A stretch of DNA of 64,000 nucleotides, taken from positions 588,201 through 652,200 of the forward strand of contig NC_092679.1 in the NCBI RefSeq assembly GCF_964355755.1. Reading direction: 5' to 3'. The notes under the pieces were generated by a model. That model had not been told where the DNA came from. It saw only the letters and a program-made list of their open reading frames with translations, and searched no databases. A program made the translations under genes and the position numbers. Within the stretch, counting starts at the first letter, position 1. Each line of letters starts with the position of its first letter. This document shows, piece after piece, positions 1-62,442 of this stretch. Origin of the DNA: Antedon mediterranea. Taxonomy: Eukaryota; Animalia; Echinodermata.

Positions 1-523
1 ATGATCACTGCGCGTCATGACGTCACATTCTAGATTTGTTCATTCCTGTCTTGACTGAAACGGAAGAAACTAGGATGTGTCGAACGATACAAGTTATCTA
101 ATTGAAATAGTTTTAATAGAGATTAGTTTCAAAGTCTTTATACTGTTTTGTGTATACCTGAAGTTCATTATAACACTATTATTTTTATATACTGAATTTT
201 GGTATTACAATTACGTTTTACGATGTTTTATATGTTTTAAATCTAGGTGTGAGATTTCCAATTCACAAGGAAGCTAGATTGATCAGCGTAACAATTTTAC
301 TTGGATACGTGTCTAACTTGATTGAAACTCTCTCAGAGCGTCAGTGACAAATTTGACATGGAAATGGCATGACTTTTACGCGTCCGTCTAACTTTATTGA
401 AATTTTAGCGACAGTGACAATTTGACATGAAAAATGACTTGACATATAAAAACTTGATTTTTACGCGCGTTTCTAACTTGTTTGAAACTCTCTCAGAGTG
501 TCACCGATTGTATGCATGTTTTA

Positions 524-1265
524 GTAAGTTTGATGCATGGATGCTTGGTATGGTGCGTGGCAGACGCTTGGTGCATGGCAGTCGCTTGGTGCGGTGTGGC
601 GGACGCTTTGAAGTATACGCTTAGCGTTTTATGCTGCATGGCAGTAAGCATGTTGCATGGTAGTACGATTGGTGCATCATGGCAGACGTTTGGTGCATGG
701 GTAGTACGCGTGGTGCATGGTAGTACGCGTGGTGCATGACAATATGCGTGGTGCATGGCAGTACGCGTGGTGCAAGGCAGTACGCTTGGTGCATGGCAGT
801 ACGCGTGGTGCATGGTAGTATGCTTGGTGCATGGCAGTACGCGTGGTGCATGGTAGTATGCTTGGTGCATGGCAGTACGCGTGGTGCATGGTAGTATGCT
901 TGGTGCATGGCAGTACGCGTGGTGCATGGTAGTATGCTTGGTGCATGGCAGTACGCGTGGTGCATGGTAGTATGCTTGGTGCATGGCAGTACGCGTGGTG
1001 CATGGTAGTATGCTTGGTGCATGGCAGTACGCGTGGTGCATGGTAGTATGCTTGGTGCATGGCAGTACGCGTGGTGCATGGTATTATACTTGGTGCATGA
1101 CAGTACGCTTGGCCCATGGCAGTACGCTTGGCGCATGACAGTACGACGCGTCATATGTCGTCACGCGCTGTTTATAGCCGATGCATGCTGCTACGCCTGT
1201 CGCGTGGTACGCATGTCGTGTTGTACGCCTGTCGCGTGGTACGCCTGTCGTGTGGTACGCCTGTA
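524..1265. repeat. GC-rich minisatellite, 19-bp unit with 38-bp dimeric higher order (GTGGTGCATGGTAGTATGCTTGGTGCATGGCAGTACGC)
   Basis: Direct tandem periodicity with a homogeneous core (~790-1080) and degenerate edges. Explains the overlapping repetitive ORFs 482..1299. Confidence 0.92.
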
Positions 1266-5583: not shown

Positions 5584-5937
5584 AGTTTGGTTCCAATTAT
5601 GATTGGTTCCCACTAGCGACGCAACACAAGAACGTAACGCAACGTAAAGCGTGGTTCCCACTAGCGACGCAACGCAAGGACGTAACGCAACGCAAGTGAA
5701 TTGACCAATCACAAGCAATGGCTTATTCGCTTGTGATTGCTAACTGTCTATAACTTCGCTTGTCATTGGTTAAAACGCTTGCGTTGCGTTTACGTCCTTG
5801 CGTTACGTTCAAGTGGGAACCAAGCTTTAGTGAGTTGACCAACCACAAGCGATTAGATGGATTATTCGAACAGTGGCTTGTCATTGGTTAACTCGCTTGC
5901 GTTGCCCGTACGTACTTGCGTTGGTGGGAACCACGCT
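5584..5937. mobile_element. MITE family B: a full copy (5648-5826) nested inside a related copy
   Basis: TIRs AGC[G/T]TGGTTCCCACT...AGTGGGAACCA[A/C]GCT. The inner copy is flanked by TAA (5645-47) and TTA (5827-29). The outer halves rejoin into a family-like sequence. Confidence 0.85.
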
Positions 5938-6472
5938 TTAGGCCTAGGACGTACCACCCAATTTACTGTATCGAGAATCACAATTAGAGACAGTTGTCCT
6001 TGGTTAAAACTTACGTTTCGCGTACACACGCACGTCCTGCACTGGTTCCAGCTCCGGCCCGGTTCCGGAAAATAAAATCGCGTCTCAATGTTGTTTTCGC
6101 GACGTGACCCACGGCTCGCGTGGCCCGTATCGTGAAATTGAAAAATATGAACATTCATTAATTATATCTTGCTATGACCTCGTACACAAACTATGAAATT
6201 AAATAAGAGATTGTGATGACGCGGTTAGGTTTCATTATTGAGGTTTCATTTCTATCGAATTCGTTACATATTGCGTTATAGTGTTACATATTGCGTTACA
6301 TATTTCGTTACAAAGCAACATCTTTATCTATATATTACATTACGTGGTAACGAATATCGTATCACATGATTTATATAATAGTACTTATTATTGATAACCG
6401 AGTAACCCTAGAAATGATTGCATAGGCCTCCATTTTATCGAGATAAACGTAATAATGTATTACTATGAGTGT

Positions 6473-6780
6473 TAAGATCGAAACAGTACTGTCTGCAGAT
6501 TGGATATTATGCTCCTCTACTTTCTGCTATATACTATAGTATGTTGTTTTGTAGAGCACTCTTCAGTTCGAAACGGTTCATTTTGTTGTGAATACTATTA
6601 GCATTTTGCAAAGCACGCTCGTTGAGCTTGTGCACTCTTTGTGTTCATAATCAGTGTACCATGTCCCGCAGACCTGGCTCAGCCTATATATTGTGCTAGT
6701 TCTGCGGTACATTTCATTTCGAAACCTGAGTTGCACTGACGAGATCTAATAAGATCGAAACAGTACTGTCTGCAGATTGG
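6473..6780 (+). mobile_element. Penelope pLTR- or retrozyme-like monomer bounded by hammerhead repeats
   Basis: The 3' half of the hammerhead (TAAGATCGAAACAGTACTGTCTGCAGATTGG) is repeated at 6473-6503 and 6750-6780. The cleavage triplets are 277 nt apart. Confidence 0.65.
6732..6774 (+). ncRNA. Minimal type I hammerhead ribozyme motif
   Basis: TGCA-CTGACGA-GATCT(AATA)AGATC-GAAA-CAGTACTG-TC^-TGCA: stem I, conserved core, stem II, GAAA, palindromic stem III and a GUC cleavage triplet. Confidence 0.85.
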
Positions 6781-6817
6781 AGATATATATATATATATAT
6801 ATAATTATATATATATA

Positions 6818-7206
6818 AATCCAAAGGCAAATTACTGAAAAAAATGACAATGCTGTGGGTATCATCAGTGGCTGGATCTCAATGGAGATATGATACCAAA
6901 AAAAAGCGAAAAAGCTAAATCAAAACGATAAGTAAAACAGCCAGAAAAGTTAGCAGAGCTTTCGGGCAACACTAGCCCTTCATCAGTGCAAGTGAAGGAA
7001 TTTGAATAACGTCATAGTATAAGAATTGGCAAGTGCTGCCTGGGTGGACAGGAATAAAAGAAATACAACAAAAGGAGACAGGGTGGAGTCTGAATAAGAG
7101 TAGAAAACAACAAAAGGAGACAGGGTGGAGTCTGAATAAGAGTAGAAAACAAAGAAGGTAGCTTGGTAAAGATATAAACAATTTAGAATGAAACTAAAAA
7201 ACAGCT
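6818..7206 (-). mobile_element. Truncated Penelope-like element 3' fragment inserted in a (TA)n microsatellite
   Basis: Carries a minimal hammerhead. Bounded on both sides by (TA)n tracts (6783-6817, 7207-7230). Internal ~42-bp duplication at 7065-7150. Confidence 0.6.
6953..6989 (-). ncRNA. Minimal hammerhead ribozyme motif (Penelope-like)
   Basis: The minus strand reads GCA-CTGATGA-A-GGGC(TAGTGTT)GCCC-GAAA-GC-TC^-TGC. Confidence 0.8.
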
Positions 7207-7524
7207 TATATATATATATATATATATATACAATAAATAAAATTATCCAATCTATAAAATTACGTGTTCATTATAAAATCTTTCTCTAAGTGTTCCGATG
7301 CGTGGAAATGATCTTACACATTCCAAGGAGAAACATAGCTGTGGACATTGGACTTTCCCATGTGTTGGACCTAGAATCTGACTTTATACATTAGAAATAC
7401 GTCATCTTTGGACAGTTTTAAGCCACTTCTAACAAGTGTTTTTTTTTTCCTTTTTTGAAACAAAAGACATATCATATAAACATGAGAGAAGTCATTTTTA
7501 ACATACTATGTATGCATGGTATAA

Positions 7525-7686
7525 GGCTCTGTCTACAATATCAACCTAGTTTGACAAAAAAAAATGTGATGTGTCCAAATATGGTAGTGATATGCCCCAA
7601 TATGGTAGTGATATGAGATCCTCATGTCCATATATGGGCACATTACATTTTGTTTTCACATAAAGTTTGATAGTGTATATAGAGCT
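7525..7686. mobile_element. MITE family A (~165 bp; TIR AGCTCTGTCTACACTATCAAACT)
   Basis: Inverted termini, internal CCCAAATATGGTAGTGATATG repeats and TAA/TTA flanks. About 10 copies in the window. Confidence 0.88.
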
Positions 7687-8130
7687 TTACGCGTTGTATT
7701 CAGCAAGAAAGGAAGGCCAAATGCCTAAAATGGCCAAAATACATACACATGAATCTTATATACATTTATTGGGAAATGTAGTATTTTAATTACAAAGTAT
7801 TATTCTGGTGATTTTACTGATGAATATCGTAATCTTTGCAATCATGCACATCATTTCAGTTACCGTTAGCTTTTAAACACATTCTATTTCGAATTCTACC
7901 CGACCTATATATTCGCCATCCTCATATTTTGTTACTACAGGAAAAACAAAATGAAACAATGCTTAATTTGTTACGCAGAAAAGTTAGAAAATTCTTCAAA
8001 GTCAATTGCAAAACAACTTACTTAACTTGAATGACATAATGTAAGTGAATACTTACGAGTAAGCTTACATTTAAAATGTCCTATGGAAAGGCATCGATGG
8101 CAAAATATATTCTTATAGACCACATAAATT

Positions 8131-8543
8131 GAGTTGAAAGTGACAACGCCCAGAGTGTGCTAGTTGAAAGTGACAACGCCCGGAGTGCGCGAGTTGAAAA
8201 TGAAAACACCCGGGAGTGCGTGCGTGGAATATGACACCGCCCGGAGTGCGCGAATTGAAAGTGACAACGCCCAGAGTGTGCGAGTTAAAAGTGACAACGC
8301 CCTGAATCACGAGTGTGCGAGTGGAATGTGACAACGCCTGGAGTGCGCGAGTTGAATGTGACAACGCCCGGAGTGCGCGAGTGGAATGTGACAACGCCCG
8401 GAGTGCGCGAGGTGAAAGGTAACAATACCCGGAAGTGCGCGAGTGAAAGGTAACAACACCCGGGAGTGCGCGAGTAAAACGTGATAACGCCCGGAGTGCG
8501 CGAGTTGAACCTCATAACATCCGGAATCACGAGTGTGCGAGTC
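8131..8543. repeat. ~29-bp degenerate tandem repeat (GAGTTGAAAGTGACAACGCCCGGAGTGCGC-like)
   Basis: About 14 diverged tandem units. Confidence 0.88.
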
Positions 8544-10799: not shown

Positions 10800-11947
10800 A
10801 TAAATAGAAGTTGGAATTGTAAGTGTTTAAATGTATTCATTGAACCGTATAAACATACTTGGAATGTTTCTTTCAAACAGAAGTTTGGAATTGGAACTGT
10901 TTAAATGTATTCATTGAACTGCAGCAACTACTTGCAGAGTTTAAATTGGAACTGTTTTTCTTGAACTGTAACTTGGAAAGTTTCTTTTAAACAGAAGTTA
11001 GGAATTGAAACTTCTTTTTGTTTTAAAGTGTAACAACTTGGTAAGTTTCTTTTAAAACAGAAGTTTGCAATTGGAACTGGTTTTTGTTTTAAAGTGTAAC
11101 AACTTGGTAAGTTTCTTTTAAAACAGAAGTTTGCAATTGGAACTGGTTTTTGTTTTAAACTGTAACAACTTGGTAAGTTTCTTTTAAATAGAAGTTTGGA
11201 ATTGAAACTGCTTTTCCCTAAACTGTAACAACTTGGAAAGTTTCTTTTAAACAGAAGTTTGGAATTGAAACTGCTTTTCCCTAAACTGTAACAACTTGGT
11301 AAGTTTCTTTTGAATAGAAGTTTGGAATTGAAACTGCTTTTCCCTAAACTGTAACAACTTGGAAAGTTTCTTTTAAACAGAAGTTTGGAATTGAAACTGC
11401 TTTTCCCTAAACTGTATCAACTTGGTAAGTTTATTTTGAATATAAGTTTGGAATTGAAACTGCCTTTCCCTAAACTGTAACAACTTGGTAAGTTTATTTT
11501 AAACAGAAGTTTGGAATTGAAACTGCTTTTCCCTAAACTGTAACAACTTGGTAAGTTTATTTTAAACAGAAGTTTGGAATTGAAACTGCTTTTTCCTAAA
11601 CTGTAACAACTTTGAAAGTTTCTTTTAAAACCGAAGTTTGGAATTGGAACTGCTTTTTGTTTTAAACTGTAACAACTTGGTAAGTTTCTTTTGAATAAGT
11701 TGGAATTGTAACTGTTTTTCCTGAACTGTAGACACTTTCTGGAATTTCTTTGAAATAGAAGTTAAAATTGTAAATGTTATTCTTGAGAAACTATTTGGAA
11801 AATTTGTTTTTAAATAGAAGTTGGAATTGGATTTACTGAACTATAGACACTTTTTTTTCGGAATTTCTTTTAATTAGAACTTAAAATTGGAACTGTGAAA
11901 TGTAGAAACTATTTTGAAATTTTTTAAATAGAAGTTGGAATTGGAAC
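10800..11947. repeat. ~63-bp tandem repeat (AAACTGTAACAACTTGGTAAGTTTCTTTTAAACAGAAGTTTGGAATTGAAACTGCTTTTCCCT)
   Basis: Homogeneous core at ~11020-11700 with degenerate flanks. Confidence 0.9.
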
Positions 11948-13087
11948 GTCGCGTTAGTAGGCCTATCACATGTTTGTTCGCGTCAACCCATATAGATCAT
12001 TCACAATTGATACACTCATTTCATGTTGTATGATTGATGTATATCTGACAATCCTCTTTGTCAATAAAATATTCACAACTTATTTGTTATAATCTCGTGA
12101 GATGAGTAATTACGTGTTAAAGTTCAATGAAATTAAGATTTTAAAGCGTCATTGGTTTGTGTTTGAAACGCGTTTCCTTGATTCACAATCTTTGTTATAA
12201 ATAGGATAAACGAAAACAATTGCAATAGTTTATGACCATTGCTATTAGCAAGATGAGTCTAAATATGTATTCTTTTAAGTATATTTTGAATTAAAAGGTG
12301 AATGCATTTGTTTGATTTGCTTAGTAACATAAAACGCGTCGGTTACTACTTCCCTCTCTACTTAATGTTGATTAAATCGTGTCTAATGGTTGCTATGGGC
12401 TTCTCAAATATCAATTACACTACAACATTACTTAAACAGACGTGTCATACATCTTAATTTTAAAAGGCAAAAACAAACTATATCTACTCAAGGTTAAGGA
12501 TGTCTGATTTGACTACAAATCAGTTTATTATACTAAAGTAAGGTATGAAACGCCAAATTGGTCAAATTACTAGTAATCGAATTGTCTTATACAGATTTGG
12601 CACTTCATTAACAAGTAACACTCACGGCAGCAGCCTATATTAGTATGTATGTTCATTGTAGACCGACCAGCTTAAGCCTACATCAAAATGATAAATGTCT
12701 CGAATTATAAGCGACTAGATTAATTGTACACATGGGAATGTATATTTCATTACATAGATACTTTACTGATATGTCATTAATTCAATACCCTGGGAATATG
12801 AACGTCTCAAAAGGGCATCATGGGAATTTACAATTTCAACCAAAGAAAGAATATTCGTCTTTACATCGATACCCTGGGAATAATAGTCTTTACATCATGA
12901 TAGGTATATTTACACGTCATAGGTGCAATGGTCGTTTTATGGCTATCCCTGGGAATTTATGTAACTAAAAGATGACCTGAGAATGTATACGTCATTAAAT
13001 AAAATTAACATGGAAAATACATATTATACCTCTCTATATATACGCCAAAGTATACTGGTGATGTAACAAAATCAAAGTACACAGGAA

Positions 13088-13838
13088 CGAAATGGCAGTA
13101 CACTGGGGATATAACGGAATGACAGGACACTGGGGATATAACGGAATGACAGGACACTGGGGATATAACGAAATGACAGTACACTGGAGATATAACGGAA
13201 TGACAGGACACTGGGGATATAACGGAATGACAGGACACTGGGGATATAACGAAATGATAGTACACTGGGAATATAACGAAATGACAGTACACTGGGGATA
13301 TAACGGAATGACAATACATTGAGGATATAACGGAATGACAATACACTGGGGATATAACGGAATGAGAGTACACTGGGGATATAACGGAATGACAATACAT
13401 TGAGGATATAACAAAATGAGAGTACACTGGGGATATAACGAATTGACAGTACACTGGGAATATAACGAAATGACAGTACACTGGGGATATAACGGAATGA
13501 TAGTACACTTTCGGATATAATGAAATGACAGTACATTGGAGATATAACGAAATGACAGGACACTGGGGATGTAACAAAATGACAGTACACTGGGGATATA
13601 ACGAAATAACAGTACACTGGGGATATAACGAATTGATAGTACACTGGGGATATAATGAAATGACAGTACACTGGAGATATAACGAATTGACAGTAAAATG
13701 AGGATATAACGAAATGACAGTACACTGGGAATATAACAAAATTATTACAGTACACTGGAGATATAACAAAATTACACTACACTGGAGATATAACGAAATA
13801 ACAGTACACTGGGGATATAACGGCATTTCAGTACACTG
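13088..13838. repeat. 27-bp minisatellite (GGGGATATAACGGAATGACAGTACACT)
   Basis: About 27 units. The overlapping ORFs show 9-aa periodicity. Confidence 0.93.
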
Positions 13839-15170
13839 TCAGCTTGTTCCATAATTTGTAAATATTATAGGCCTACCTAATGGATACACTACACGCAAAG
13901 TAACAATTACAGATTAACTAAAAATAATTTCCTTTCTGGTTTAATATTAGTGGTCGATTATTCTATGAAAATAACATGCGTCTTATATAGACCCGAAACA
14001 TTAGAACGTCATGTGAACACTCTATATTGTATTTACACACAATGTATGTAGACCTATACATTGTACGGACTTCATTATGCTCACTTCTTTCCCTTAAACT
14101 GTTCTCTATAACAAAAATCAGTGAAAATTGATTGCCGTGTATCAATTGCGTTGTACTAGTCGTTAACATTAGCAATCCGGATTACCTGCGAAATGCCAAT
14201 ATTGTGGCTTAACTAAATTTTATTTAGCAATAGTATGTCAGAAAAAAGTCTATTAATTTAGAACACGTACGTCACGATAAATCAATATTGAAATTCATAT
14301 ACAAATTGTAATTAAATCTATTGTTCTCAACAATCAATAAAAATTGGTTTGTAAAGCAAAAAAAAAGCGAAGTAAAATTTGCATACCAATATACATGGAG
14401 TCAAATTTGCATATCAAAACACGTGAAGTAAAACGTGTATCAGTTTGAAATAGCCATTCATTTTGCAGGGTCTCAAATTTGCATATTTTGCACACGTGTA
14501 ATGAAATTTGTATATATATATAACACTGTTTGAATAAATTATGGAGGAATTAAGACTAAGTCTTTTATATCTGTTTTCATTGTGTAACTTTATCTGGTAA
14601 CTAATCAGAAAAACTAGGCCTATGTCCGCCGCCGCCGCGCGCGTACGTTTTTATATTTCTTTTATTTCACCGCTTGTTTTACTACATTTCGTACAGTAAA
14701 CACACACACACATAATATATATACAGTATATATATATATTATATGTTCATGTATCAATGAGAATAAGAAAGCAATTTGTAAGTAATAATTATAACCGGCT
14801 GAAAACAGCAAAGCAGAATAATAATGTAATTTTTGTTCTACTTTCTAATTCCTGAATGTACAATAATGAATAAAAAACAAACAAAAAATGAACATTTTGT
14901 AACAAAAAATAATAATAAAAATACCGATTCAAGACCCAGAAAGATACTGTAGTAGTAATCAGGGGAAAAATAAACAACCGTCAACCAGAAGAGTAAAAGA
15001 ATTCGGATTTCAACGGAGAAGAGAAGAGGAAATTAGATGGGCCATGCGAAATATATACTTATGAATTGTTTTTAGCTTATTAGAATACGATTATTTGTTA
15101 TTATAAAATATACTAGTTTTTGCATGAAAGTATAACATTACATTTATTTTGGGGCATTTTTGTGAATCAG

Positions 15171-17578: not shown

Positions 17579-18245
17579 TTTGGTTCTCACTGGGACTGTA
17601 CACATAAAGCTTGGTTCACACTGCACTTGGACACATAAAGCTTGGTTCTCACTGGGACTGGACACATAAAGCTTGGTTCCCACTGCACTTGGACACATAA
17701 AGCTTGGTTCCCATCTGCACTTGGACACACAAAGCTTGGTTTCCACTGCGCCTGGACACATAAAGCTTGGTTCCCACTGCACTTGGACACACAAAGCTTG
17801 GTTCCCACTGCACTTGGACACATAAAGCTTGGTTCCCATCTGCACTTGAACACACAAAGCTTGGTTCCCACTGCGCCTGGACACATAAAGCTTGGTTCCC
17901 ACTGCACTTGGACACACAAAGCTTGGTTCCCACTGCGCCTGGACACATAAAGCTTGGTTCCCACTGCACTTGGACACATAAAGCTTGGTTCCCACTGCAC
18001 TTGGACAAACAAAGCTTGGTTCCCACTGCGCCTGGACAAAGAAAGCTTGGTTCCCACTGCACTTGGACACACAAAGCTTGGTTTCCACTGCACGTGGACA
18101 CACAAAGCTTGGTTCCCACTGCGCTTGGACACATAAAGCTTGGTTCCCACTGCGCCTGGACACATAATTAGCTTGGTCCCCACTGCACTTGGACACGTAA
18201 AGCTTGGTTCCCACTGCACTTGGACATAAAGCTTGGTTCCCACTG
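17579..18245. repeat. ~31-bp satellite whose unit contains the family B MITE TIR (AAAGCTTGGTTCCCACTGCACTTGGACACAT)
   Basis: About 21 units. The last unit continues into MITE-like sequence (...GTGATTGGTCAAATCGTTGCG). Confidence 0.9.
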
Positions 18246-19060
18246 CAGCGTAGTAACACGTAACAGATCATACGACCCATCGTGTCGTGATTGGTCAAAT
18301 CGTTGCGTCTAAAAAAAACTTATCTTGTGATTGGTCAGATTTATACATTTACGTTCCCACGTACGCGCGCACATAACCTGTTTTTTTACTTGAGTTGTAC
18401 TACTGTATCTGATACAATGATGATTTTAACGACACGATTGTGACATAATGAAAACTAGGATGGCTATAATTATTAATTATTTGAATTAAGTGATCATCAT
18501 TAATACATTTTGTCCTCCTTCATTGCATCCTACAATATCCTTGCTGTTTGTTTGTTCCACGGAGTATCCTAATTTCATCATAAATAATTAAGTTCCACAT
18601 TCTGTAGTTTATTTAGTCTACGTATCTTACTGAACCGGTAAATTTTAATAACATTTCACATCCCTTTAGCCCAGACGATGAAATTTGAGCCGTGGATGAT
18701 AATCAAGAATTTTCCGTAGTGAGTTAAAGCCAGCATGATTCGGTCGATTTGAAGCGATTCCGATGCTACTATATCAAGTACCTAAATTTGAATTTAATAC
18801 CTTAAACAACTGTAAAGCTACACATAGGGATATACATTATATATTATTACGAGATCTAGTTTGTATATGTAATCTAATAAGGTTTTAATGTATGCAGATA
18901 ACAAAATAAAAAATTGGAAATAAATATATTGGTTGTAGGGTAGAACTAACTCCTGATATTGTAAATGATGGGGTCGCTCACAATGAATATTATTGGAACC
19001 CCATCGAATATTGAATGAGAGAAATGTTGAAGTCCTGTACTTGAAGTAGTCGTACGCATG

Positions 19061-19414
19061 AAGCGTGGTTCCCACTAGCGACGCAACATAAGGACGTAAT
19101 GCAACGCAAGTGAATTGACCAATCACAAGCGATGGCTTATTCGCTTGTGATTGCTAAAGCTTGGTTCCCACTAGAACGTAACGCAAAGACGTAAACGCAA
19201 CGCAAGTTTTTTAACCAATGACAAGCGAAGTTATAGACAGTTAGCAATCACAAGCGAATAACATCGCTTGTGATTGGTCAATTCACTTACGTTGCGTTAC
19301 GTCCCTGCGTTGCGTCGCTAGTGGGAACTAACTGTCTATAACTTCGCTTGTCATTGGTTAAAACGCTTGCGTTGCGTTTACGTCCTTGCGTTACGTTCTA
19401 GTGGGAAACAAGCT
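19061..19414. mobile_element. MITE family B with an inverted copy of itself (19158-19328) inserted at its central TAA
   Basis: The outer halves match the intact copy at 5648-5826. The inner copy is reverse-oriented and flanked by TAA at 19155-57 and 19329-31. Confidence 0.88.
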
Positions 19415-19930
19415 TTATGGAGACCAGACTAGAAAGACTAACCAATTATGTCTACATACAGAGTTTGGCTTATAAATTACATCGCCTAAGGACAAGAACC
19501 AACATGATGATTATACAACGATTGTCCTTTTGTTGCTGCTTGTTATAGTAGTAATTACTAGTATTTGTCATTATCCTCTAGTCTACAAACAATGTTATTT
19601 TAGTACTCAATATAGATTGAAGATAAAATTGGTATACGACGCACAGTGCCTGTACTACTTAATATGTTATAATATAATATAATTGATCAAGTCTCTACGA
19701 TAGATTTATTGTATTATAATAAATGATGTTTTTACTGCAAAGCACGTCAGATGTTTGTTTGGTTTTATGAATAATATATTTAATTTGGAAGATAGTACTA
19801 CTAAAAAAACGTGTGTGTCTAATTCTCAAGGTTTAGTTTTCATTAATTATTATTCCGTCTTTATTTGTATCAGCGATGCTTCAATATGCTGTTATTTTTT
19901 GTGTGTGTTATTTTTCAATTCATTTTATAA

Positions 19931-20063
19931 AGCTGTCTACACTATCAAACTGTATGCGACAAAAAAAATGTGATGTGCCCAAATATGGACATGATGATGT
20001 CATAATGTATTTGGGAACATAACACTCTTTTTTGTCAAACTAGTTTATAGTGTAAACAGAGCT
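19931..20063. mobile_element. MITE family A copy (internally deleted)
   Basis: Both TIRs are present. Confidence 0.82.
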
Positions 20064-20461
20064 TTATAGTGCTGAAATTTGGTTAGTTCCCACTACGACA
20101 CAATACGCGCGCAACGAGTTAACCATCACAAGTTTGGATGATCCATCGCGTCGTTTTGGCCAAATTGTTTGCAGTGCGCTTACGTCATCGTTGTGCTGTG
20201 TGTCCAACGTACATAGCTTTAATCAGTCTATTGACTATAATGATGTAGTTCCGTATTTTATTGGGTCCTTTAATATTACCCGTTGTTTTTATTTAATATA
20301 GTACCATGATATGTTGACGATGTGTAGATACGTGTTTTTATTTTGTTCCTATAATGCGACCATATATTTTGTTAGGTTTTCATTTCATATTATTATTTTA
20401 TTACTATTATTATTCTATAATTCTATTGTAAACATTTTGTCATAAATTTCCATAAATCAAT

Positions 20462-24111: not shown

Positions 24112-24270
24112 TACACACATCCCAAACTTTATGTGACAACAAAATGTGATGTGCCCATATAATAATGGACATGATGATGTCATATCACTACTATATTTGG
24201 GCATATCACTACTATATTTGAGCACAGCACACTTTTTTTGTCAAACTAGTTTCATAGTGTAGACAGAGCT
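24112..24270. mobile_element. MITE family A copy
   Basis: Right TIR ATAGTGTAGACAGAGCT plus TAA; internal motif conserved. Confidence 0.8.
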
Positions 24271-24417
24271 TAAGATGGCTATCACATCAAACATAACATT
24301 CGAAAGGATTACATTTACATGGATTTCGGACGAAATCAAACAAGAATAAATTATGAGTCTATTATGTTGCCACTTAACGGAGGTAAAATAAAATTAAATA
24401 GAGCAACATAAGTCAAT

Positions 24418-31170: not shown

Positions 31171-31192
31171 AATTAAATTTTAGAAAGAGTAG

Positions 31193-32199
31193 GGGGTAAC
31201 CTATGGAACGCCTCCTCTGCCTTCAGTTCACATTTATCATGCATTACACACCAATCGTCATGCAGTACACACCAATGGTCATGCAGTACACACCAATGGT
31301 CATGCAGTACACACCAATCGTCATGCAGTACACACCAAACGTCATGCAGTACACACCAATCGTCATGCAGTACACACCAATCGTCATGCAGTACACACCA
31401 AACGTCATGCAGTACACACCAATCGTCATGCAGTACACACCAATCGTCATGCAGTACACACCAATCGTCATGCAGTACACACCAATCGTCATGCAGTACA
31501 CACCAAACATCATGCAGTACACACCAATCGTCATGCAGTACACACCAAACGTCATGCACTACACACCAATCGTCATGCAGTACACACCAATCGTCATGCA
31601 GTACACACCAATCGTCATGCAGTACACACCAAACATCATGCAGTACACACCAAACGTCATGCAGTACACACCAATCGTCATGCAGTACACACCAATCGTC
31701 ATGCAGTACACACCAATCGTCATGCAGTACACACCAATCGTCATGCAGTCAAATATTGCATAATCTATACCGCCACCTATCGACAAAATCGAATATCAGG
31801 TGACGTTTATTAGACGGCTGTAAAACTAAGGCTATACAAATGTTATACTACAGCAACTCACGCTGTCTACTACTACACCGCACATGCTTTACGTCCTATA
31901 GATTCCAAGATTTCTTTAATAGTTTTTTCAAGCCATTTTAGTTATAAAGCACGTGCGGTGTAGTAGTAGACATCGAGTTGCTGTAGTATAATGTTTGAAT
32001 AGCCTTAGTTTTACAGCCGTCTAATAAACGTCACGTGATATTCGATTTTGTCGATAGGTGGCGGTATAAATTACGCAATATTTGACTGCATGACGATTGG
32101 TGTGTACTGCATGACGATTGGTGTGTACTGCATGACGATTGGTGTGTACTGCATGATAAATGTGAACTGAAGGCAGAGGAGGCGTTCCATAGTAACCCC
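31193..32199. mobile_element. Foldback-type element with long TIRs containing a 21-bp minisatellite
   Basis: 31193-31891 and 31944-32199 are reverse complements (GGGG..CTATGGAACGCCTCCTCTGCCTTCAGTTCACATTTATCATGCA...) separated by a ~52-bp spacer. The left arm has 24 repeat units and the right arm has 3. Confidence 0.88.
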
Positions 32200-32681
32200 A
32201 TTGTCTAAGACCATGACTAATAATTACGGAAACTACTATGTACGAAACAAGATTAAATTAAATTAAATTAATATGTACAAGACAGTTCAATAAACTCAAT
32301 ATATAAAAAAAATGAAAAATAGAAACATGAGGCCTTGGCCTGGTATAGATGATAGCACACAGCAGCAACAATTCATCTGGGTAAAATAATAATATGGACT
32401 GTTGTCTATATGACTTGATTGATAGAATTCATAACATGTATACATAGTAATTACATAAGATCAAGTATTTACTTCTATATCATTAAATATTAATAACTAT
32501 AAATGTACTCTAACACAACGTCGTCAGTAAAAATTACTTTATTGGTGCCGATTCACACTCATGGGATTAACAACAAAACAAATACAAACATATTCCATTG
32601 AAACTCAAGCTTGGAGAGGATAACATGCTTCTCCCAAATTTAACAACATCTTTTCAAATTGAGTTCACGACATGACTCTAA

Positions 32682-32819
32682 AGATGTCTACACTATAAAA
32701 TCTTATGTGACAAAAAAGTGTGATATGCCCAAATATGGTAGTGATGTGACATCATCATGTCCATATATGGGCACATCACATTTTATTGTCACATAAAGTT
32801 TGATAGTGTAAACAGAGCT
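32682..32819. mobile_element. MITE family A copy with TAA target-site duplication
   Basis: TAA at 32679-81 and 32820-22. Confidence 0.85.
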
Positions 32820-34022
32820 TAAGTGATTATTTAAAAATGATTCTACTAAAGTTTAATGTCAAGCCTATAGCCTCAAGCAGATGTGATGCTAAAGAGGTCT
32901 AACCATTTAGAACTAACTGGTCTAGCCTTATAATTCTGTTTTGCCCATTTTGTGGACAAACAAACCCCAAACTGTAAAACTGGCTACGGGCTCGATTGTA
33001 TCATTTGTAATCTAGTTGAATTAATTAATAAACGAAACAAAATAAAAAACAAATTATGACAAAAGCTTCTAGAAAAGCTTTTTAAAAGCTGAACAGACAG
33101 CAGACAGTAATGGTAGACAAACAGCAACCAAGAACCGGATGCAAATTAATACAGCATTCATTGAATGACTTGGCCTAGATTAATATATATTGTTTCTCCT
33201 TATGAATATTTTATAATTTTCTTAAGACTGATTGCATGTTTACAAATTAACATGTAATCCAAAATTAAATGTTGATTTGGAATGGCATCTAGTGTGGGGT
33301 GATTGCATAACAAAAAGAAAATGGCAGACATGTTTTTTAAATACTTTTAATTCTATATGCAATTTCATTAGTTTTAATTAGTGTAATAACCGTACCAAAA
33401 TTCACATTTCAATTAACATAAGAAATTGAATACCCTATTGTTATTTTAAAAAGATCTTTTAATATTTGCATTTTCATAATTAAATGTCAACTAACTTATG
33501 TCAATATAATAACAACTAAATTGGGATTTCATATTGAGTTGAATGCATATTAGAAATGGAAAAATATATGAATTGGCTCATTTTAAAAACAATTCAAACG
33601 TGTGACTCAGGTATACTAATACACCATATATGGTGGAGTAGCTCTAGGCTAATAATGCTAAATAATGATTTTATTAGAATAATGACAATTTCATGTTTTC
33701 TATTGTCTGTATAATGTATGCATTTCATCAGCCTTTGGCTGGCTCTCCTATGACTTAAATACATCTTAAATTATTATGATATTAATAAATAAATGTTTAA
33801 CTGTTGCTATGAATAGAGGTGAATTGCCTAAGCTTAGAGACCCGACAAATTCTCTATTTAAAAAAAACCTTATAAGCAGCAACATGGCTGGCAACAACTT
33901 TGCTCCTGAGCCGCTATAACTAATAACTGAATTTCAATTTTAGATTTAATATTAAACAGGTAATGATACTTTGTGAATACTATAAGATGGTATGATATAT
34001 ACCGTACTATGTCAATACTTAC

Positions 34023-36350: not shown

Positions 36351-36450
36351 CAGTACTCCAATGACTTGAACCAGTGCCAATGTTATCTGGCTTGCAATGG
36401 CACCTTAATCACTCTACCACTTGATTCCCAAGTAAGAAACCAAGGTGTAC

Positions 36451-36592
36451 CTTTGTATATGGCTGCAGCTGCAGCTTGTGTGTCGCGGTGTAACAGTTTC
36501 CTAGACCATGATGCATTGTTCTCAGCCATACCTTTTAGATCTGACATGACCTCAAACATTGTGGGATAGTTCACTGTGATCTCATCAACATC
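36451..36592 (-). CDS. NDUFAF5: NDUFAF5 coding exon (142 nt; [47 protein letters not shown])
   Basis: Overlaps ORF 36383..36574. tttttaAG acceptor, GTACAC donor. Conserved DEIxVNYPxMFE...LHRDTxxAAAAxY. Confidence 0.93.
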
Positions 36593-36848
36593 CTTAAAAA
36601 TAAAAACCTTAAATTAATTAAACATTCATCTTTGCATAGCTTTTAGCTATATGGCATCAATTGACATTTGGGCATAGGAGGCATACACTGAATAAATAAG
36701 AGGGTACACACAAAGCAAAATGCTTTAAATGAAGTCCACAATAATAATAATTAATGGTTATGTACATTAATGATGGTGCCAGCATTCATTTGTACACAAC
36801 TAGTACAACTTGTACACAAAGCCATAAATATGTACAATTATAAATTAA

Positions 36849-37274
36849 ATGTTATACAGTATATATATATATACTATTCACAGAATGTTATACAGTATAT
36901 ATATATACTATTCACAGAATGTTATACAGTATATATACTATTCACAGAATGTTATACAGTATATATACTATTCACAGAATGTTATACAGTATATATACTA
37001 TTCACAGAATGTTATACAGTATATATACTATTCACAGAATGTTATACAGTATATATACTATTCACAGAATGTTATACAGTATATATATATACTATTCACA
37101 GAATGTTATACAGTATATATACTATTCACAGAATGTTATACAGTATATATATATACTATTCACAGAATGTTATACAGTATATATATATACTATTCACAGA
37201 ATGTTATACAGTATATATATATACTATTCACAGAATGTTATACAGTATATATATATACTATTCACAGAATGTTA
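36849..37274. repeat. 30-34-bp minisatellite (ATGTTATACAG(TA)nCTATTCACAGA)
   Basis: About 13 units with a variable internal TA count. Confidence 0.93.
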
Positions 37275-38240
37275 TTCTATAGTAGTTTTTACACGATACT
37301 TTTTAATCATTACATTTTTATACATTCTGAATGTTGTGCAGTTTTTTACTTGATGTTTTATTCTATTTTTCAATGTCGTTTGTATGTATTTTATATAAGT
37401 TTTTTCAATGCCTAGAGCTTTTTATCGTTTTTAATTTGTATCCAGTTTTTCTGTCTTATATCACAAGCAACATATTTTGTTTTTATACCTATATTTGAAA
37501 ACACAACAAATATAACTTGAACTTGATTTACCATAAATTTAAATACCACATTAGATTTATTCTCTATTGTACATACTATCTAATGATTGTTAACAATGTT
37601 TCTGTATCTTGGTGCAGGGAATGGGTTGATCTAGGCCCCAGTTGATAAATAATCTTGCATTACATCGCTTTTATCTCAATGGAAAGCTCTTAAATCCTTA
37701 TTAAATTTGATTATGCAGGCTTTGTATTTGGTGAAAAAACTAAAACAAATTGTAATAAATATTTATTTTCTTGATACATATAGTACATTTTCTGATGACA
37801 TTGAGAAATTAGAATAACTATGTAGACACTATTCTGTCATAATAAAACATTAATGTTTTAATTTATAAACATCTTTTGGTGTTAAATGTTAAAGATTGAT
37901 GAGTGCTAAAGCAAATGTCGTTATCAATAACATTTTAATGTAGTATTTTGGGTTAATTAATATTTAAATATTTATGGTCACAGTCTCAATTGATTTTAAA
38001 CATTTATATTTAAAGTTAACTGATATTTATAAATAAATATTTAAATATATTAGTAATAGTTCTATGTGTAATAAGTCTATGTTTAACATAGAAAACTTTT
38101 AACTTAATGTATTATATTTAGGATAATGACTCATATATTTATATGGATACCCAGATACAGATACTAGTATACATACTTTTTTATTTTTTTACATTTATTC
38201 ATTTGACATTTATCTTTTTGTTAACCTGCATTATAGTAAT

Positions 38241-38383
38241 GATCTGTCTACATTATCAAACTTTATGTGGCAAGAAATGTTATGTGCCCATATATGGACA
38301 TGATGATGTCATATCACTACTGTGTTTTGGCATATCACTACCATATTTGGGCACATGACTAGTTTGATAGTGTGGACAGAGCT
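38241..38383. mobile_element. MITE family A copy
   Basis: Both TIRs are recognisable. Confidence 0.8.
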
Positions 38384-39791
38384 TTACTATAAAGTTTTTT
38401 TTTAATTTATTTTATTTTAACAATATTTAATGAGGGGGGTCCATCCAGCCGACGCTGTTCAAGCGATCCTCAAAACAATACAATTTGTTTACAATATATT
38501 TTGCTTTTTTGACAATCTTCAAGAAACAAGATGTTTGTTATTGGATAATTTGTGTTTTCTGTGAAATAAATGAATTTGAAAGCAACATCAAAATGATGAA
38601 ATATACTCAACTGAAAACAGAAGTCAAAAGAGGGGGCTATACTAGTGCTAGATTTTTCATTTGAAGGAAATATTAAATTAAAATAAAAACCAATGTATTG
38701 TACCAACAAATTATTGGTATTTATTAGTAACATTTTTTTGTATAAAAAGGAATAAAAATGATTTATTATTGACCCTGAATGAACAATATCCCTTTAAATA
38801 CTAAAATTATTCAATCTTAAATATATTCTGGTTTTCTGTGTAAATTCATCAAGTCTTAATTTACAACATTGCAGACAAGAAATAAATTTTCATTAAAGTT
38901 TTATCATTTCAGATCTTAACAAAGATTCAATGAGGTTTTCGGGAAAGAACATAGAAAAGAAGACTCCCTTAAGTACGTACTCATCATTAAGTAAATCACT
39001 ATATTTTCATATAAATACAATTTGTATTAATAAAGGCCAAATCCACCACTGAATATTCATTAGCCAATTTCATTCAGTAAATTTCTAATAAATATGTTTT
39101 GTGTCGCGGTAGGACAAAGGTCCAACTGGCAAATCTTTTTCTGTGGTTCAGAACAAATATAGTTTTACAAAACACAAAATTTGTTTTTAAAATTGCTTTT
39201 AAAGACGTGTGAAGCGACCATTACAGTGCAAGTATAAAAGCAATTTATTATATTGATGAAAAACAGATTAAATGTCCAAAAGCTTAGAATAAATGTCAAT
39301 AAGTTTAAAGTGGTTTACACACAAATTTCCTATACAATTGTATATCTATACTAAATGCAAAAAAAAAAGCTTCAGAAATATAATATGTTTAAGACGCAAT
39401 CACAAATAAAATCAACCATGCATGTTGTGAATTTTTTGTTCATTTTATCAATGTTAAAAAGGGTAGTTTTATATCTTTCCTATTACTGTAATGTATATTT
39501 ATTTATCATTGGAATGAAATATATTCAGTAAAGACATTCCTGTTATATTAAATTAAGAAGAAAAATATAGGAAGATGTTAAAGATGATGAATCAATATCA
39601 GTGGGCTGCTGCTGATAATTCTGATAATGGTCGAGCTAATGATTAGATTTTATTAGATAAGATTAAATGAATTGATGGCAATGGCGATAGGTAGAGGGAA
39701 AGATTGATATCTATAAAGATTAATACTGTACACAGTTAAAATTAAGGTATTAAGTATTATATATATCTTTGAACTTGTGTTAATATTTAAA

Positions 39792-40497: not shown

Positions 40498-41319
40498 CTG
40501 CGAAAAAAAAGGATTTAAATGATGAGCATACATGATTGAAAAGAATAAATTTTGTGATCTTTAAAATAAAGTAATATAAATGGTACACAGTGCTTCAAGG
40601 GGATTTTATTTGATAAGCTGAGAATTTTGAGAATAAAAAAATAAGTTCTTATACTGTGAGCTGTCAGTGACATAATCACATCTTGAAAATGCCTTTCGCA
40701 AGCGTTAAATAAAGTTAAAATGCCTTCTGCAAGCGTTGAATAAACTCACAGTAGACAAATGTCCTAAAACTATCTTGCAGCAATTTAACCATAAACCTAC
40801 AGGTTTATCATTCATTACAGTATTATTATCTTAATAATGACATATCTATGCAAAATCTACCTAATCTTTATTGTAATCCTTTTAATGTATTTAAATTTTG
40901 TGCGCTTCAATTTTTAATCAATAAGTATTTGTCTGAATGTATGAAGTAAATAATATGTTATATTTGTGACATCTTGTACGATTCAGATGTTTGATTGATG
41001 TTGTTGCTAAGTAGAAGACTATCACCTTTAGAAACTCTTCTTTATTATACTTGCAAAATAAGGTAGTAAAGTAAGTAAATACTTAACAAAAGACATGAAT
41101 ACTTAGTTAAGTAAGCACATTTATTCATGCAAGTGGTTGGTACCATAGTTTGACTAAGATCCAAACATTGGTCTAAAGTATTGTAGCAGTGCTCATGCAA
41201 TGGTAGGTACCATAGTTTCACTTACAAACATAGTTTAAAGCTCAAATAAAGCATTACAGACCAATAATAATAATAATAATAATAGACCAATATTAGTAGT
41301 TTTAAGCTTTGATTTCTAA

Positions 41320-41445
41320 AGCTCTGTCTACACTATCAAACTATTTTGACCCAAAAAAGTGTGATGTGCCCAAACATGGTAGTGATATGACATCATCATG
41401 CCCATATATGGCCACATCACGTTATGTTGTCACATTTCGAAAACT
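41320..41445. mobile_element. MITE family A copy (right end degenerate)
   Basis: Perfect left TIR AGCTCTGTCTACACTATCAAACT. Confidence 0.8.
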
Positions 41446-44834: not shown

Positions 44835-44930
44835 TTTAGCTTATACCCACAGCATTGTTCAGTCATTTAGCTTATACCCACAGCATTGTTCAGTCATTTA
44901 GCTTATACCCACAGCATTGTTCAGTCATTT
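44835..44930. repeat. 31-bp tandem triplication
   Basis: TTTAGCTTATACCCACAGCATTGTTCAGTCA x3. Confidence 0.9.
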
Positions 44931-44986
44931 GCCTTTTGATTTATATTCATATTATGTATACATCCTGTTATCGGCTATAATATAAC

Positions 44987-47653: not shown

Positions 47654-47823
47654 AGCTCTGTACCCCTACACTACAGTATCAAACTAATTTGACAACAAAG
47701 TATGATGTGCCCAAATATGGTAGTGATATGCCCAAATATGATAGTGATATGACATAATCATGTCCATATATGGGCACATGACATTTTTTTTGTCACATAA
47801 AGTTTGTTTGTGCAGACAGAGCT
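47654..47823. mobile_element. MITE family A copy
   Basis: TIRs and internal repeats are conserved; TAA/TTA flanks. Confidence 0.83.
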
Positions 47824-50800: not shown

Positions 50801-51164
50801 TACAAAAACTAATCATGATTTCTTTGTACAAATAATGTTTAAATTCTGTTTTCTACGAATCGGATGATTGCTCTAAATTGTTATTTACCGGCAATAATTA
50901 CTAATAGATAAAAAAAAATAATAAAGATTTTGAATTAAATCAAATATATAGTTTTAGGAAACATGATATCGGTCAGCTCATAATGAAACGTCTCAAGAAA
51001 AGTCAAAGAATACTACTGAACTGGTGCATTATCTAAAGAGGTGGCAATGAATGCATTTAACAATCAATCTGTGTTAAATAGAAGCATAGAATAGGATATA
51101 AGCATAGAACAGGTTAACACTTGGTCATATTATGCAAGATCTTAGGTACCTATCAAAACCTGAG

Positions 51165-51215
51165 CTGCACCGACGAGATCTAATAAGATTGAAACAGAAC
51201 GCCTACTGTCTGCAG
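51165..51215 (+). ncRNA. Degenerate hammerhead copy of the 6732 family (core mutated)
   Basis: CTGCA-CCGACGA-GATCT(AATA)AGATT-GAAA-CAG(AACGCCTA)CTG-TC-TGCAG; the CUGA core is changed to CCGA. Confidence 0.6.
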
Positions 51216-51709
51216 ATTGCGTATATATTTTCGAAGAAAAACTGAATTTTACCAAACAATCTAAAATAGCAAGTAAACCAACATCACCACACAATTCTAG
51301 ATAACATCTAAAACATCGCTTCATTAAGAGATCCTGGAAAGAACTAGTTTTATGTGTTGACAAAAGAGAGCAGATTCTAGGAATATGTATCAAATTGATT
51401 GACAATTTAAGAATTATCACACTACACAAATCTTGTATAATGAGTAGAGTGCTTACACTAGCATTTGAAACTAATAAATATCAACGAGCGTTGTTAATTA
51501 CACTTGAATTTCATTATAATGTCAAACAATGTGCTGAAGAAAGCATGTTTAATAAACTGTTTGATAATTGTACATTAAGAAATAAAAAAATTAATTAAAA
51601 ATAAAAATATTCCATAATATAGTAAACAAGTATAACATTCATCCAATGGGACTTTCAAAACATAATGTATAATTATTAATTCTACAGATCAATCAATTCC
51701 TCAACTTAC

Positions 51710-60508: not shown

Positions 60509-60554
60509 CTTCTTGTTTGTATTGTTCATGTGAAATCCGGAATGCCTATATATT

Positions 60555-60650
60555 GACATGATGATGTCATATCACTACCATATTTTGGCATATCAAAACC
60601 ATCACATCACACTTTTTTTGTCAAACTAGTTTGATAGTGTAGACAGAGCT
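60555..60650. mobile_element. MITE family A, right half
   Basis: Ends AGTTTGATAGTGTAGACAGAGCT plus TTA. Confidence 0.8.
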
Positions 60651-60723
60651 TTAGTAGATTGATGCGATGTTATGCTCTTTCAACCAATCAATAGACAGAA
60701 CCGAAATATAATATAAAACATAC

Positions 60724-62334: not shown

Positions 62335-62442
62335 CATGTGACAAAATAAAATGTGATGTGCCCATATATGGACATGTTGATGTCATATCACTACCATAAT
62401 ACACTTTTTTTGTCAAACTAGTTTGATAGTGTAGACAGAGCT
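62310..62442. mobile_element. MITE family A copy whose left TIR is the last satellite unit
   Basis: TTA at 62307-09 and 62443-45; family A interior and right TIR. Confidence 0.87.

What the first reader, a model, noticed from the sequence alone, without database searches (positions are those of the whole stretch)
6473..6780. Hammerhead-bounded 277-nt monomer (retrozyme / Penelope pLTR-like)
Seen: a complete minimal type I hammerhead at 6732-6774 (core CUGACGA...GAAA...GUC) and a direct repeat of its 3' half 277 nt upstream. Stem III is the palindrome CAGUACUG. Established: Penelope-like elements and metazoan non-LTR retrozymes carry tandem minimal hammerheads with palindromic stem III that cleave as dimers, and retrozymes yield small circular RNAs. 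Inference: this is a 5'-truncated insertion of a tandem, self-cleaving non-coding retroelement with a ~277-nt unit.
Basis: partly seen in the sequence, partly recalled or inferred. Interest (0 to 1): 0.72.

Follow-up and report, generated by a model that had tools for sequence, protein, structure and literature searches.

The report
Hammerhead mini-retroelement copy beside TA microsatellite
A 277-base non-coding repeat unit ending in a hammerhead self-cutting RNA motif sits here as 1.1 copies next to a TA microsatellite; it belongs to a multi-copy family and is likely a small passenger element copied by Penelope retrotransposon enzymes, a known kind of element.

Summary
A type I hammerhead lies at 6725-6781 (Rfam HH9, E 0.0006) and 35 bases of its 3' half recur 277 nt upstream (34 of 35 identical). 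By the published definition it is a canonical-type, not a minimal, hammerhead. Public-run contigs show a multi-copy family in three coded organisms: the hammerhead-to-body join recurs, depth climbs 5- to 100-fold towards the hammerhead (as 5' truncation would give), and copies stop 10-15 nt past the cut site in AT-rich DNA. A fourth organism shares only the hammerhead. No RT or GIY-YIG gene lies in the window. Best reading (0.7): a monomer-type copy of a non-autonomous, Penelope-mobilised non-LTR retrozyme-like family, copied slightly more than once round a circular or uncut tandem RNA. Cleavage, expression, circles, tandem arrays and the partner enzyme are untested. New here: a true minimal hammerhead of a far more abundant pLTR-like repeat lies tail-to-tail across the same TA tract; and folding favours a cross-fold in which the downstream enzyme half cuts the upstream half-site. 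The scan has found this kind of element before on other DNA (9 notes, at least 7 genomes). Known kind; interest modest.

The parts
6473..6507 (+). 5'-truncated second round of the unit: 3' half of the hammerhead (stem II 3' strand, GAAA, helix III palindrome, GUC ending C6493, stem I 3' strand); starts inside loop II
   Evidence: 35-nt direct repeat, 97%; the join to the unique left flank is in one X1 contig, 6200-6502, 1 difference; other contigs continue leftwards in hammerhead sequence
6494..6770 (+). Predicted 277-nt monomer, cut site to cut site; non-coding, strongly self-paired
   Evidence: Linear fold -83.5 kcal/mol, z -4.43, 0 of 200 shuffles; circular -76.5, z -3.26, 1 of 100 shuffles, reverse strand -61.4; longest stop-free stretch on the circle 42 aa (+) and 55 aa (-)
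6661..6712 (+). Long hairpin in the body of the unit
   Evidence: Self-inverted blastn hit and present in all predicted folds; no covariation support
6725..6781 (+). Complete type I hammerhead, canonical-type; predicted cut after C6770; element ends at about 6781-6783
   Evidence: 99-100% of depth in 7 of 7 multi-contig runs, and the one X5 contig there, read C at 6731, giving a C-G pair in stem I
6784..6817 (.). (TA)n tract, likely the insertion target of both elements
   Evidence: other copies of the family also end in (AT)n or AT-rich DNA (table 7)
6819..7206 (-). Separate, very high-copy pLTR-like repeat, 5'-truncated, with a minimal hammerhead (core 6986-6980, extra A before stem II, GAAA-GC-UC, predicted cut after C6956); tail-to-tail with the reported element
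   Evidence: summed contig depth at 6944-6974 is 822,416 against 41.8 on the unique flank in X1; flanked by (TA)n at 6784-6817 and 7207-7230; no linked ORF seen
51127..51228 (+). Decayed, 5'-truncated second copy (or sister subfamily): 3' 100 nt only, core U4 changed, 6-nt insert in helix III, same 3' end followed by TATATAT
   Evidence: blastn 77.6% over 107 columns, E 3e-19

Best explanation
This is one dispersed, 1.13-unit copy of a multi-copy, non-coding hammerhead repeat family that likely spreads as a passenger of Penelope-like retrotransposons. Shown: a 277-nt unit with one complete type I hammerhead at its 3' end, 35 nt of a second round in front, a TA tract behind, no coding capacity, and many relatives that share the 3' end and lose sequence progressively from the 5' side. 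Inferred mechanism: (1) a tandem or 1+ unit copy is transcribed; (2) the hammerheads cut after GUC, most readily in the dimer-type fold in which the palindromic helix III pairs between two units; (3) the self-paired monomer is likely closed to a circle by a host ligase, as shown for other animal retrozymes; (4) a Penelope-like RT/GIY-YIG enzyme likely nicks (TA)n DNA and primes on the AUAU 10-13 nt past the cut site; (5) copying usually stops early (many 3' stubs), and here ran once round and 35 nt beyond. The template must have had the cut-site junction intact (circle or uncut multimer), because a cut linear monomer would end at C6770.
For: Motif real and beyond chance. Family: the hammerhead-to-body join is covered by 10 contigs in X1, 5 in X6, 1 in X7, 1 in X8 (T6510C row), i.e. 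organisms A, B and C; single contigs span 6473-6615 (X8), 6535-6771 (X5), 6537-6749 (X6, X9), 6490-6620 (X2); one X2 contig shows the head-to-tail joint 6750 to 6474; the X8 contig continues leftwards in the hammerhead's 5' half. Polarity: depth at the hammerhead over depth at the unit's 5' part is 16, 82, 15, 5, 36 and 104 in X1, X7, X6, X8, X2, X9; Spearman rho 0.95 and 0.98 over 18 bins in X2 and X9. 3' ends: loose ends behind 6506-6510 in X2 (5+3+3 contigs), X9 (14+3), X15 (5+11), X5 (1), the X9 set starting with a pure (AT)n run; the copy at 51127-51228 ends the same way. Monomer fold z -4.4 and strand-asymmetric. Organism D keeps only the hammerhead 6725-6773, with another body upstream, so the motif outlasts the body. 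A minimal-hammerhead pLTR-like repeat in the same TA tract shows that Penelope-type elements use this target here. Published match: 170-400 nt units, type I HHR, PLEs as likely mobilisers (PMC7229834); monomer copies common and related to pLTRs (bioRxiv 10.64898/2026.07.22.740005); more-than-unit copying from circles proposed (PMC4209133); 5' truncation, partial tandems and (TA)n bias in PLEs (PMC8557442).
Against: Only one complete hammerhead here; only one contig among those listed shows the exact 277 joint, and short-read contigs cannot show arrays. Summed contig depth is not a copy number (tool's warning) and the gradient may partly come from sister families or an autonomous element sharing the 3' half: several contigs align only from 6581 on, with hundreds of unlike bases upstream (X1 records 3, 4; X2 records 10, 11), and one X5 contig has the hammerhead end with other sequence on both sides. 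The active folds lie 6 to 13 kcal/mol above the predicted minimum, in which the core pairs with the helix III palindrome. Variants in other copies give no covariation support for the body fold: of 5 majority variants 1 keeps, 1 gains, 1 breaks a pair and 2 are unpaired; of 11 minor ones 2 keep, 1 gains, 2 break, 6 are unpaired. No target-site duplication found. In the 2026 preprint 8 of 9 tested dimers did not cleave in vitro. No partner RT was found.
Confidence: 0.7

Rival explanations
1. The unit is the pLTR, or an internally deleted derivative, of an autonomous Penelope-like element. Most copies are ordinary 5'-truncated PLE ends, and the 1.13-unit form arose by RT template jumping on linear RNA, with no circular intermediate and no life cycle of its own.
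For: 5'-truncation gradient and partial tandem are standard PLE features (PMC8557442; PMC3846280); 35 nt equals the 30-40 bp PLE 'tail' in length; contigs that align only from 6581 on and contigs with another sequence after the hammerhead; hammerhead depth exceeds 5'-body depth by 5- to 100-fold.
Against: The hammerhead-to-body join recurs in three organisms and the whole unit is strongly self-paired; the motif is canonical-type, the class tied to retrozymes in PMC7229834, while PLE pLTRs mostly carry minimal motifs (PMC4209133); 6473 is not a shared boundary, so the 35 nt is not a fixed tail (loose ends); no ORF in the window. The two readings overlap, since retrozymes are proposed to derive from pLTRs.
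Confidence: 0.2
2. A one-off: a single gutted PLE, or a solo hammerhead end duplicated locally with host DNA, so the 277-nt spacing is an accident of this locus.
For: Earlier AI notes reached such verdicts at look-alike loci in other genomes; only one such unit in the window.
Against: The whole 6473-6773 stretch is high-depth, multi-contig sequence in organisms A, B and C while the left flank is single-contig; the join at 6507-6510 is shared.
Confidence: 0.04
3. A satellite or minisatellite amplified only as DNA (unequal crossover), carrying a hammerhead relic.
For: The window is rich in tandem repeats; retrozyme multimers are thought to expand this way.
Against: Depth is strongly polar, not flat, along the unit; copies end at one fixed place in AT-rich DNA; this copy and the one at 51127 are dispersed.
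Confidence: 0.05

Closest known systems
Non-LTR retrozymes of animals (Cervera and de la Pena 2020, PMC7229834; Li, Clavereau and Pollet 2026, bioRxiv 10.64898/2026.07.22.740005)
   Same: Type I hammerhead with 2-bp helix III and a tetraloop (as in HHR_Amex2 and invertebrate motifs), unit in the 170-400 nt range, non-coding, predicted self-paired, multi-copy, co-occurs with minimal-hammerhead pLTR-like repeats; dispersed 'monomer' copies are described.
   Different: This locus has 1.13 units and one complete motif, so it is not an 'active retrozyme' by the preprint's definition; tandem arrays, RNA and cleavage unshown; strong 5'-truncation gradient and fixed 3' end at (TA)n were not described in the sections I read; no TSD found.
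pLTRs of endonuclease-positive Penelope-like elements with hammerheads (Cervera and De la Pena 2014, PMC4209133; Craig et al. 2021, PMC8557442; Arkhipova et al. 2013, PMC3846280)
   Same: 5' truncation, partial tandem, 3' end a short way past the hammerhead, microsatellite target without clear TSD. The same helix III (CA-GUAC-UG) is listed for Saccoglossus kowalevskii motif 2 in the 2014 supplement, and min-HHRs for sea urchin and sea star.
   Different: No RT/GIY-YIG ORF between or near the repeats; the reported motif lacks the extra base before stem II. The neighbour at 6819-7206 (-) fits the min-HHR pLTR description instead.
Rfam Hammerhead_HH9 (RF02275, clan CL00010)
   Same: Best Rfam match, model positions 1-77 of 77, core and three stems aligned.
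   Different: 25.6 bits against a gathering score of 52; loop I differs; HH9 is, from recall, a solitary amniote intronic motif.

Membership tests
Non-LTR retrozyme | Type I hammerhead in the unit | tested here: met
Non-LTR retrozyme | Unit of about 170-400 nt, no protein coded | tested here: met
   277 nt; longest stop-free stretch on the circle 55 aa; no RT or endonuclease Pfam hit in 96 ORFs of the window
Non-LTR retrozyme | [quoted passage not shown] | tested here: not met
   One complete motif plus a 35-nt half; the locus fits only the 'monomer' class
Non-LTR retrozyme | Tandem arrangement somewhere in the family | tested here: inconclusive
   Head-to-tail join recurs, one contig with the 277 joint; contigs too short to show arrays; no genome held
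Non-LTR retrozyme | Multi-copy, dispersed family | tested here: met
Non-LTR retrozyme | Highly self-paired predicted circle | tested here: met
   z -4.4 linear, -3.3 circular; prediction only, no covariation
Non-LTR retrozyme | Expressed as linear and circular RNA | not testable with these tools
   No run on record as RNA was listed; contigs cannot show strand or circles
Non-LTR retrozyme | Self-cleavage in vitro | not testable with these tools
   Needs a bench assay
Non-LTR retrozyme | Target-site duplication longer than 4 bp, when present | tested here: inconclusive
   Longest shared word across the flanks is 6 nt, ending 27 nt left of the insert, about chance level; the feature is optional
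Minimal hammerhead (min-HHR) of metazoan PLEs | Unpaired base between core and stem II, helix III absent or vestigial, long helix II | tested here: not met
   Reported motif: no extra base, 2-bp helix III, 4-5 bp helix II. The neighbour at 6986-6956 (-) has the extra base and no helix III
Autonomous Penelope-like element | RT plus GIY-YIG ORF between pLTRs | tested here: not met
   0 of 96 scanned stop-to-stop frames of 62 aa or more hit such a family; 58 low-complexity frames of 154 were left out; only 243 nt lie between the repeats
Autonomous Penelope-like element | Same repeat linked to a PLE ORF elsewhere in the genome | not testable with these tools
   No genome held; 0 hits in the microbial and viral collections

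The most novel reading that the evidence does not exclude
Solo 1.1-unit copies of this family are not dead offspring: the 35-nt overhang keeps the whole substrate half of the ribozyme, so the single downstream enzyme half can first cut the upstream half-site in a cross-fold with an 8-bp helix III (predicted 4-5 kcal/mol better than the cis fold) and then its own site, releasing a full circle from one dispersed copy. The family would be primed on (TA)n through a TTGGAT end that it shares with the roughly 10,000-fold repeated minimal-hammerhead PLE next door, which would name its helper element.
Probability: 0.15. Interest if true: 0.55.

Novelty: new member of a known kind. Interest (0 to 1): 0.3.

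Why it matters
As a class it is known: hammerhead repeats of this size are widespread in animals, and this scan has met them in at least 7 other genomes. The value is as a test case. How retrozymes are copied into new sites is still a hypothesis; this family has a fixed 3' end 10-13 nt past the cut site, a 5'-truncation gradient and a (TA)n target, which is what target-primed copying of an intact-junction RNA by a PLE enzyme predicts. The 1.13-mer also gives a cheap experiment on whether 'monomer' copies can still release a circle. If the genome is a feather star, as earlier AI notes say, my seven literature searches showed no retrozyme described for crinoids, though min-HHRs are listed for other echinoderms and one supplement could not be read.

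Tried and rejected
No whole genome is held, so no genome-wide copy count, array search or ORF link. Exact probes found 0 matches: hammerhead probe in metagenome, viral and prokaryote genome collections; neighbour probe in metagenome and viral collections. No RNA holder listed; X7 is only a guessed RNA run and also covers the unique flank, so it says nothing on expression. No earlier scan note matched either element by sequence or 'hammerhead' in this genome. No tRNA gene; a B-box-like word at 6566 is short and has no A box, so a Pol III or SINE reading was dropped. TSD search negative. Other Rfam hits near the locus (pestivirus UTR, miRNA models) are AT-hairpin noise. The one Pfam hit in the window (CSTF2_hinge, 36386-36613, below cut-off) is unrelated. 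The idea that 6473-6507 is a fixed PLE 'tail' was rejected because other contigs run on leftwards in hammerhead sequence. The idea that this locus cannot release a monomer for lack of an upstream enzyme half was softened. Covariation of the body fold could not be shown. The supplement of PMC7229834 was too large to read, one of the PMC4209133 files was not searched, and the bioRxiv supplements were not seen; they may list echinoderm retrozymes.

Full report
Observation. The sequence shows the hammerhead as reported: CUGACGA at 6736-6742, a 5-bp stem II with an AAUA loop, GAAA at 6757-6760, a 2-bp helix III around GUAC, GUC ending at C6770, and stem I 6731-6735/6771-6775, extendable past one G.A mismatch by 4 pairs. 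The 35-nt repeat 6473-6507 / 6750-6784 is 97% identical at spacing 277. Rfam's best match is Hammerhead_HH9 over the whole model, 25.6 bits, E 0.0006 to 0.047 by search size, below the gathering score. A structural descriptor hits once in the window and in 1 of 100 shuffled windows. By PMC4209133 (parts 1-2 of 4 read) a short helix III with a palindromic loop is the canonical metazoan type I form; the minimal form has an extra base before stem II and no helix III. So the motif is real but not minimal. That paper's supplement lists the same helix III for a hemichordate motif (passages).

The unit. Cut site to cut site (6494-6770) is 277 nt, non-coding, and folds better than shuffles as a line (z -4.43, 0 of 200) and as a circle (z -3.26, 1 of 100; reverse strand 15 kcal/mol weaker). 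The hammerhead alone does not (z -0.99): in the minimum-energy folds the core's ACUG pairs with CAGU of the palindrome. Forcing the cis fold costs 9 to 13 kcal/mol. Helix III is +3.0 kcal/mol as a hairpin and -13.4 as a duplex between two copies, which fits the dimer model. On the read-through RNA 6460-6790 the cross-fold, where the downstream enzyme half pairs with the upstream half-site and would cut after C6493, scores -91.2, the cis fold -87.1 and the inactive minimum -97.1. These models leave out tertiary contacts and magnesium.

The family. A decayed 3' stub lies at 51127-51228 (77.6%, E 3e-19) with the same end followed by TATATAT. No genome is held, and the microbial and viral collections gave 0 matches. 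18 public runs hold the stretch, none on record as RNA; I laid 8 of them. All are contigs, whose summed depth is no copy number, so the ratios below are orders of magnitude. In X1 the unique left flank has depth 41.8, the hammerhead-to-body join 1,722, the lowest listed body position 540 and the hammerhead bin 30,318 (41, 13 and 725 times the flank); in X2, the same sample, the ratios are 97, 38 and about 3,500. The join is covered in organisms A, B and C (10, 5, 1 and 1 contigs with T6510C in X1, X6, X7, X8); single contigs span 6473-6615, 6490-6620, 6535-6771 and 6537-6749; one X2 contig has the 277-nt head-to-tail joint. Depth rises towards the hammerhead in all 6 multi-contig runs of A, B and C (5- to 104-fold; rho 0.95 and 0.98 in X2 and X9). 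Contigs stop matching at 6506-6510, the equivalent of 6783-6787, and continue in (AT)n or AT-rich DNA (table 7; 164 further rows were not shown). 99-100% of the depth reads C at 6731, a Watson-Crick pair in stem I, so this copy has drifted; the only core variant listed is G6741A at 0.4, 2.0 and 3.9% (some rows not shown). Organism D holds only 6725-6773 at very high depth with a different body. Against a single clean family: several contigs align only from 6581 on, and one X5 contig has the hammerhead end between unrelated sequences, so sister families or an autonomous element may add to the 3' depth. Variants give no covariation support for the body fold.

Surroundings. None of 96 scanned reading frames of 62 aa or more matches an RT or GIY-YIG family (58 low-complexity frames left out). 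Across the TA tract 6784-6817, on the minus strand, lies a second element, 7206 to 6819, itself flanked by (TA)n at 7207-7230. It carries a textbook minimal hammerhead (core 6986-6980, extra A, 4-bp stem II, GAAA-GC-UC, cut after C6956). The motif alone is weak (18 of 100 shuffles give a hit with the relaxed descriptor; Rfam missed it), but depth peaks on it at about 20,000 times the flank in X1, and the core pattern occurs 3 times in the window against 0.07 expected. I read it as a truncated PLE pLTR; no ORF is linked here. Both elements end in TTGG-A(T) before the AT tract; a shared TTGG at aligned ends has a chance of about 0.003, but I noticed it after the fact. No TSD was found.

Mechanism. 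The fixed 3' end 10-13 nt past the cut site means the template had an intact junction: a circle or an uncut multimer. The unit's own GGAUAU there offers a short match to a nicked (TA)n primer. Copying usually stops early, which gives the gradient, and here ran 1.13 rounds. This is the cycle proposed for non-LTR retrozymes in PMC7229834 (abstract, Results parts 1-2 of 3 and Discussion read) and for PLEs in PMC4209133; 5' truncation, partial tandems and microsatellite bias are PLE traits (PMC8557442, 12 of 24 passages; PMC3846280, 12 of 13 passages). The 2026 preprint (parts 1-3 of 5 read) ties retrozymes to pLTRs, finds dispersed monomers common, and saw cleavage in only 1 of 9 dimers. Transcription, cleavage, ligation and the enzyme are all inferred here.

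Membership and novelty. It works like a non-LTR retrozyme; this locus is a monomer-type copy and fails the two-complete-motif test; arrays in the family are unproven; it is not an autonomous PLE. Earlier AI notes describe the same kind of element in at least 7 other genomes (9 notes, 8 shown) and call this genome a feather star (not checked by me). Seven paper searches (listings only except as stated) showed no crinoid retrozyme, but one supplement was unreadable. Verdict: real, a new member of a known kind, interest 0.3.

Noticed in passing
window 6819-7206 (-): Very high-copy pLTR-like repeat with a minimal hammerhead, an internal 42-nt tandem duplication (7062-7145) and a pyrimidine-rich run ending in CAG near its 3' end that looks like a splice acceptor, as in the PLE 5' UTR intron.
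   Followed up: partly
window about 44840-44945 (+): The 3' tip of that neighbour repeat occurs as three tandem 31-nt copies followed by AT-rich DNA and a 14-nt tandem array.
   Followed up: partly
window 15826-15785 (-): Possible third, decayed hammerhead: CUGAAGA...GAAA with a 6-bp stem I candidate but a broken stem II. Weak.
   Followed up: partly
run X15 (organism D), laid on 6725-6773: The hammerhead alone, with a few changes, is at very high depth with a different upstream body: a related family in another organism.
   Followed up: no
window 5600-5950, 2697-2824, 19049-19417: A dispersed inverted-repeat element (MITE-like, GGTTCCCACT ends, CGCAA repeats), nested or repeated.
   Followed up: no
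window 7520-7690, 19924-20070, 24115-24277, 32675-32827, 38236-38386, 41313-41435, 47671-47826, 60543-60654, 62321-62450: A second dispersed, partly palindromic repeat of 120-170 nt with nine copies in the window; source of weak miRNA-model hits.
   Followed up: no
window 520-1145, 8090-8540, 10800-11950, 13050-13840, 17580-18250, 31190-32200, 36840-37350, 56950-57950: Many minisatellite arrays; 31678-32156 is a large near-perfect palindrome (89% over 483 nt).
   Followed up: no
window 36386-36613 (-): Weak Pfam CSTF2_hinge hit, E 0.0004, below cut-off; could be an exon or chance.
   Followed up: no
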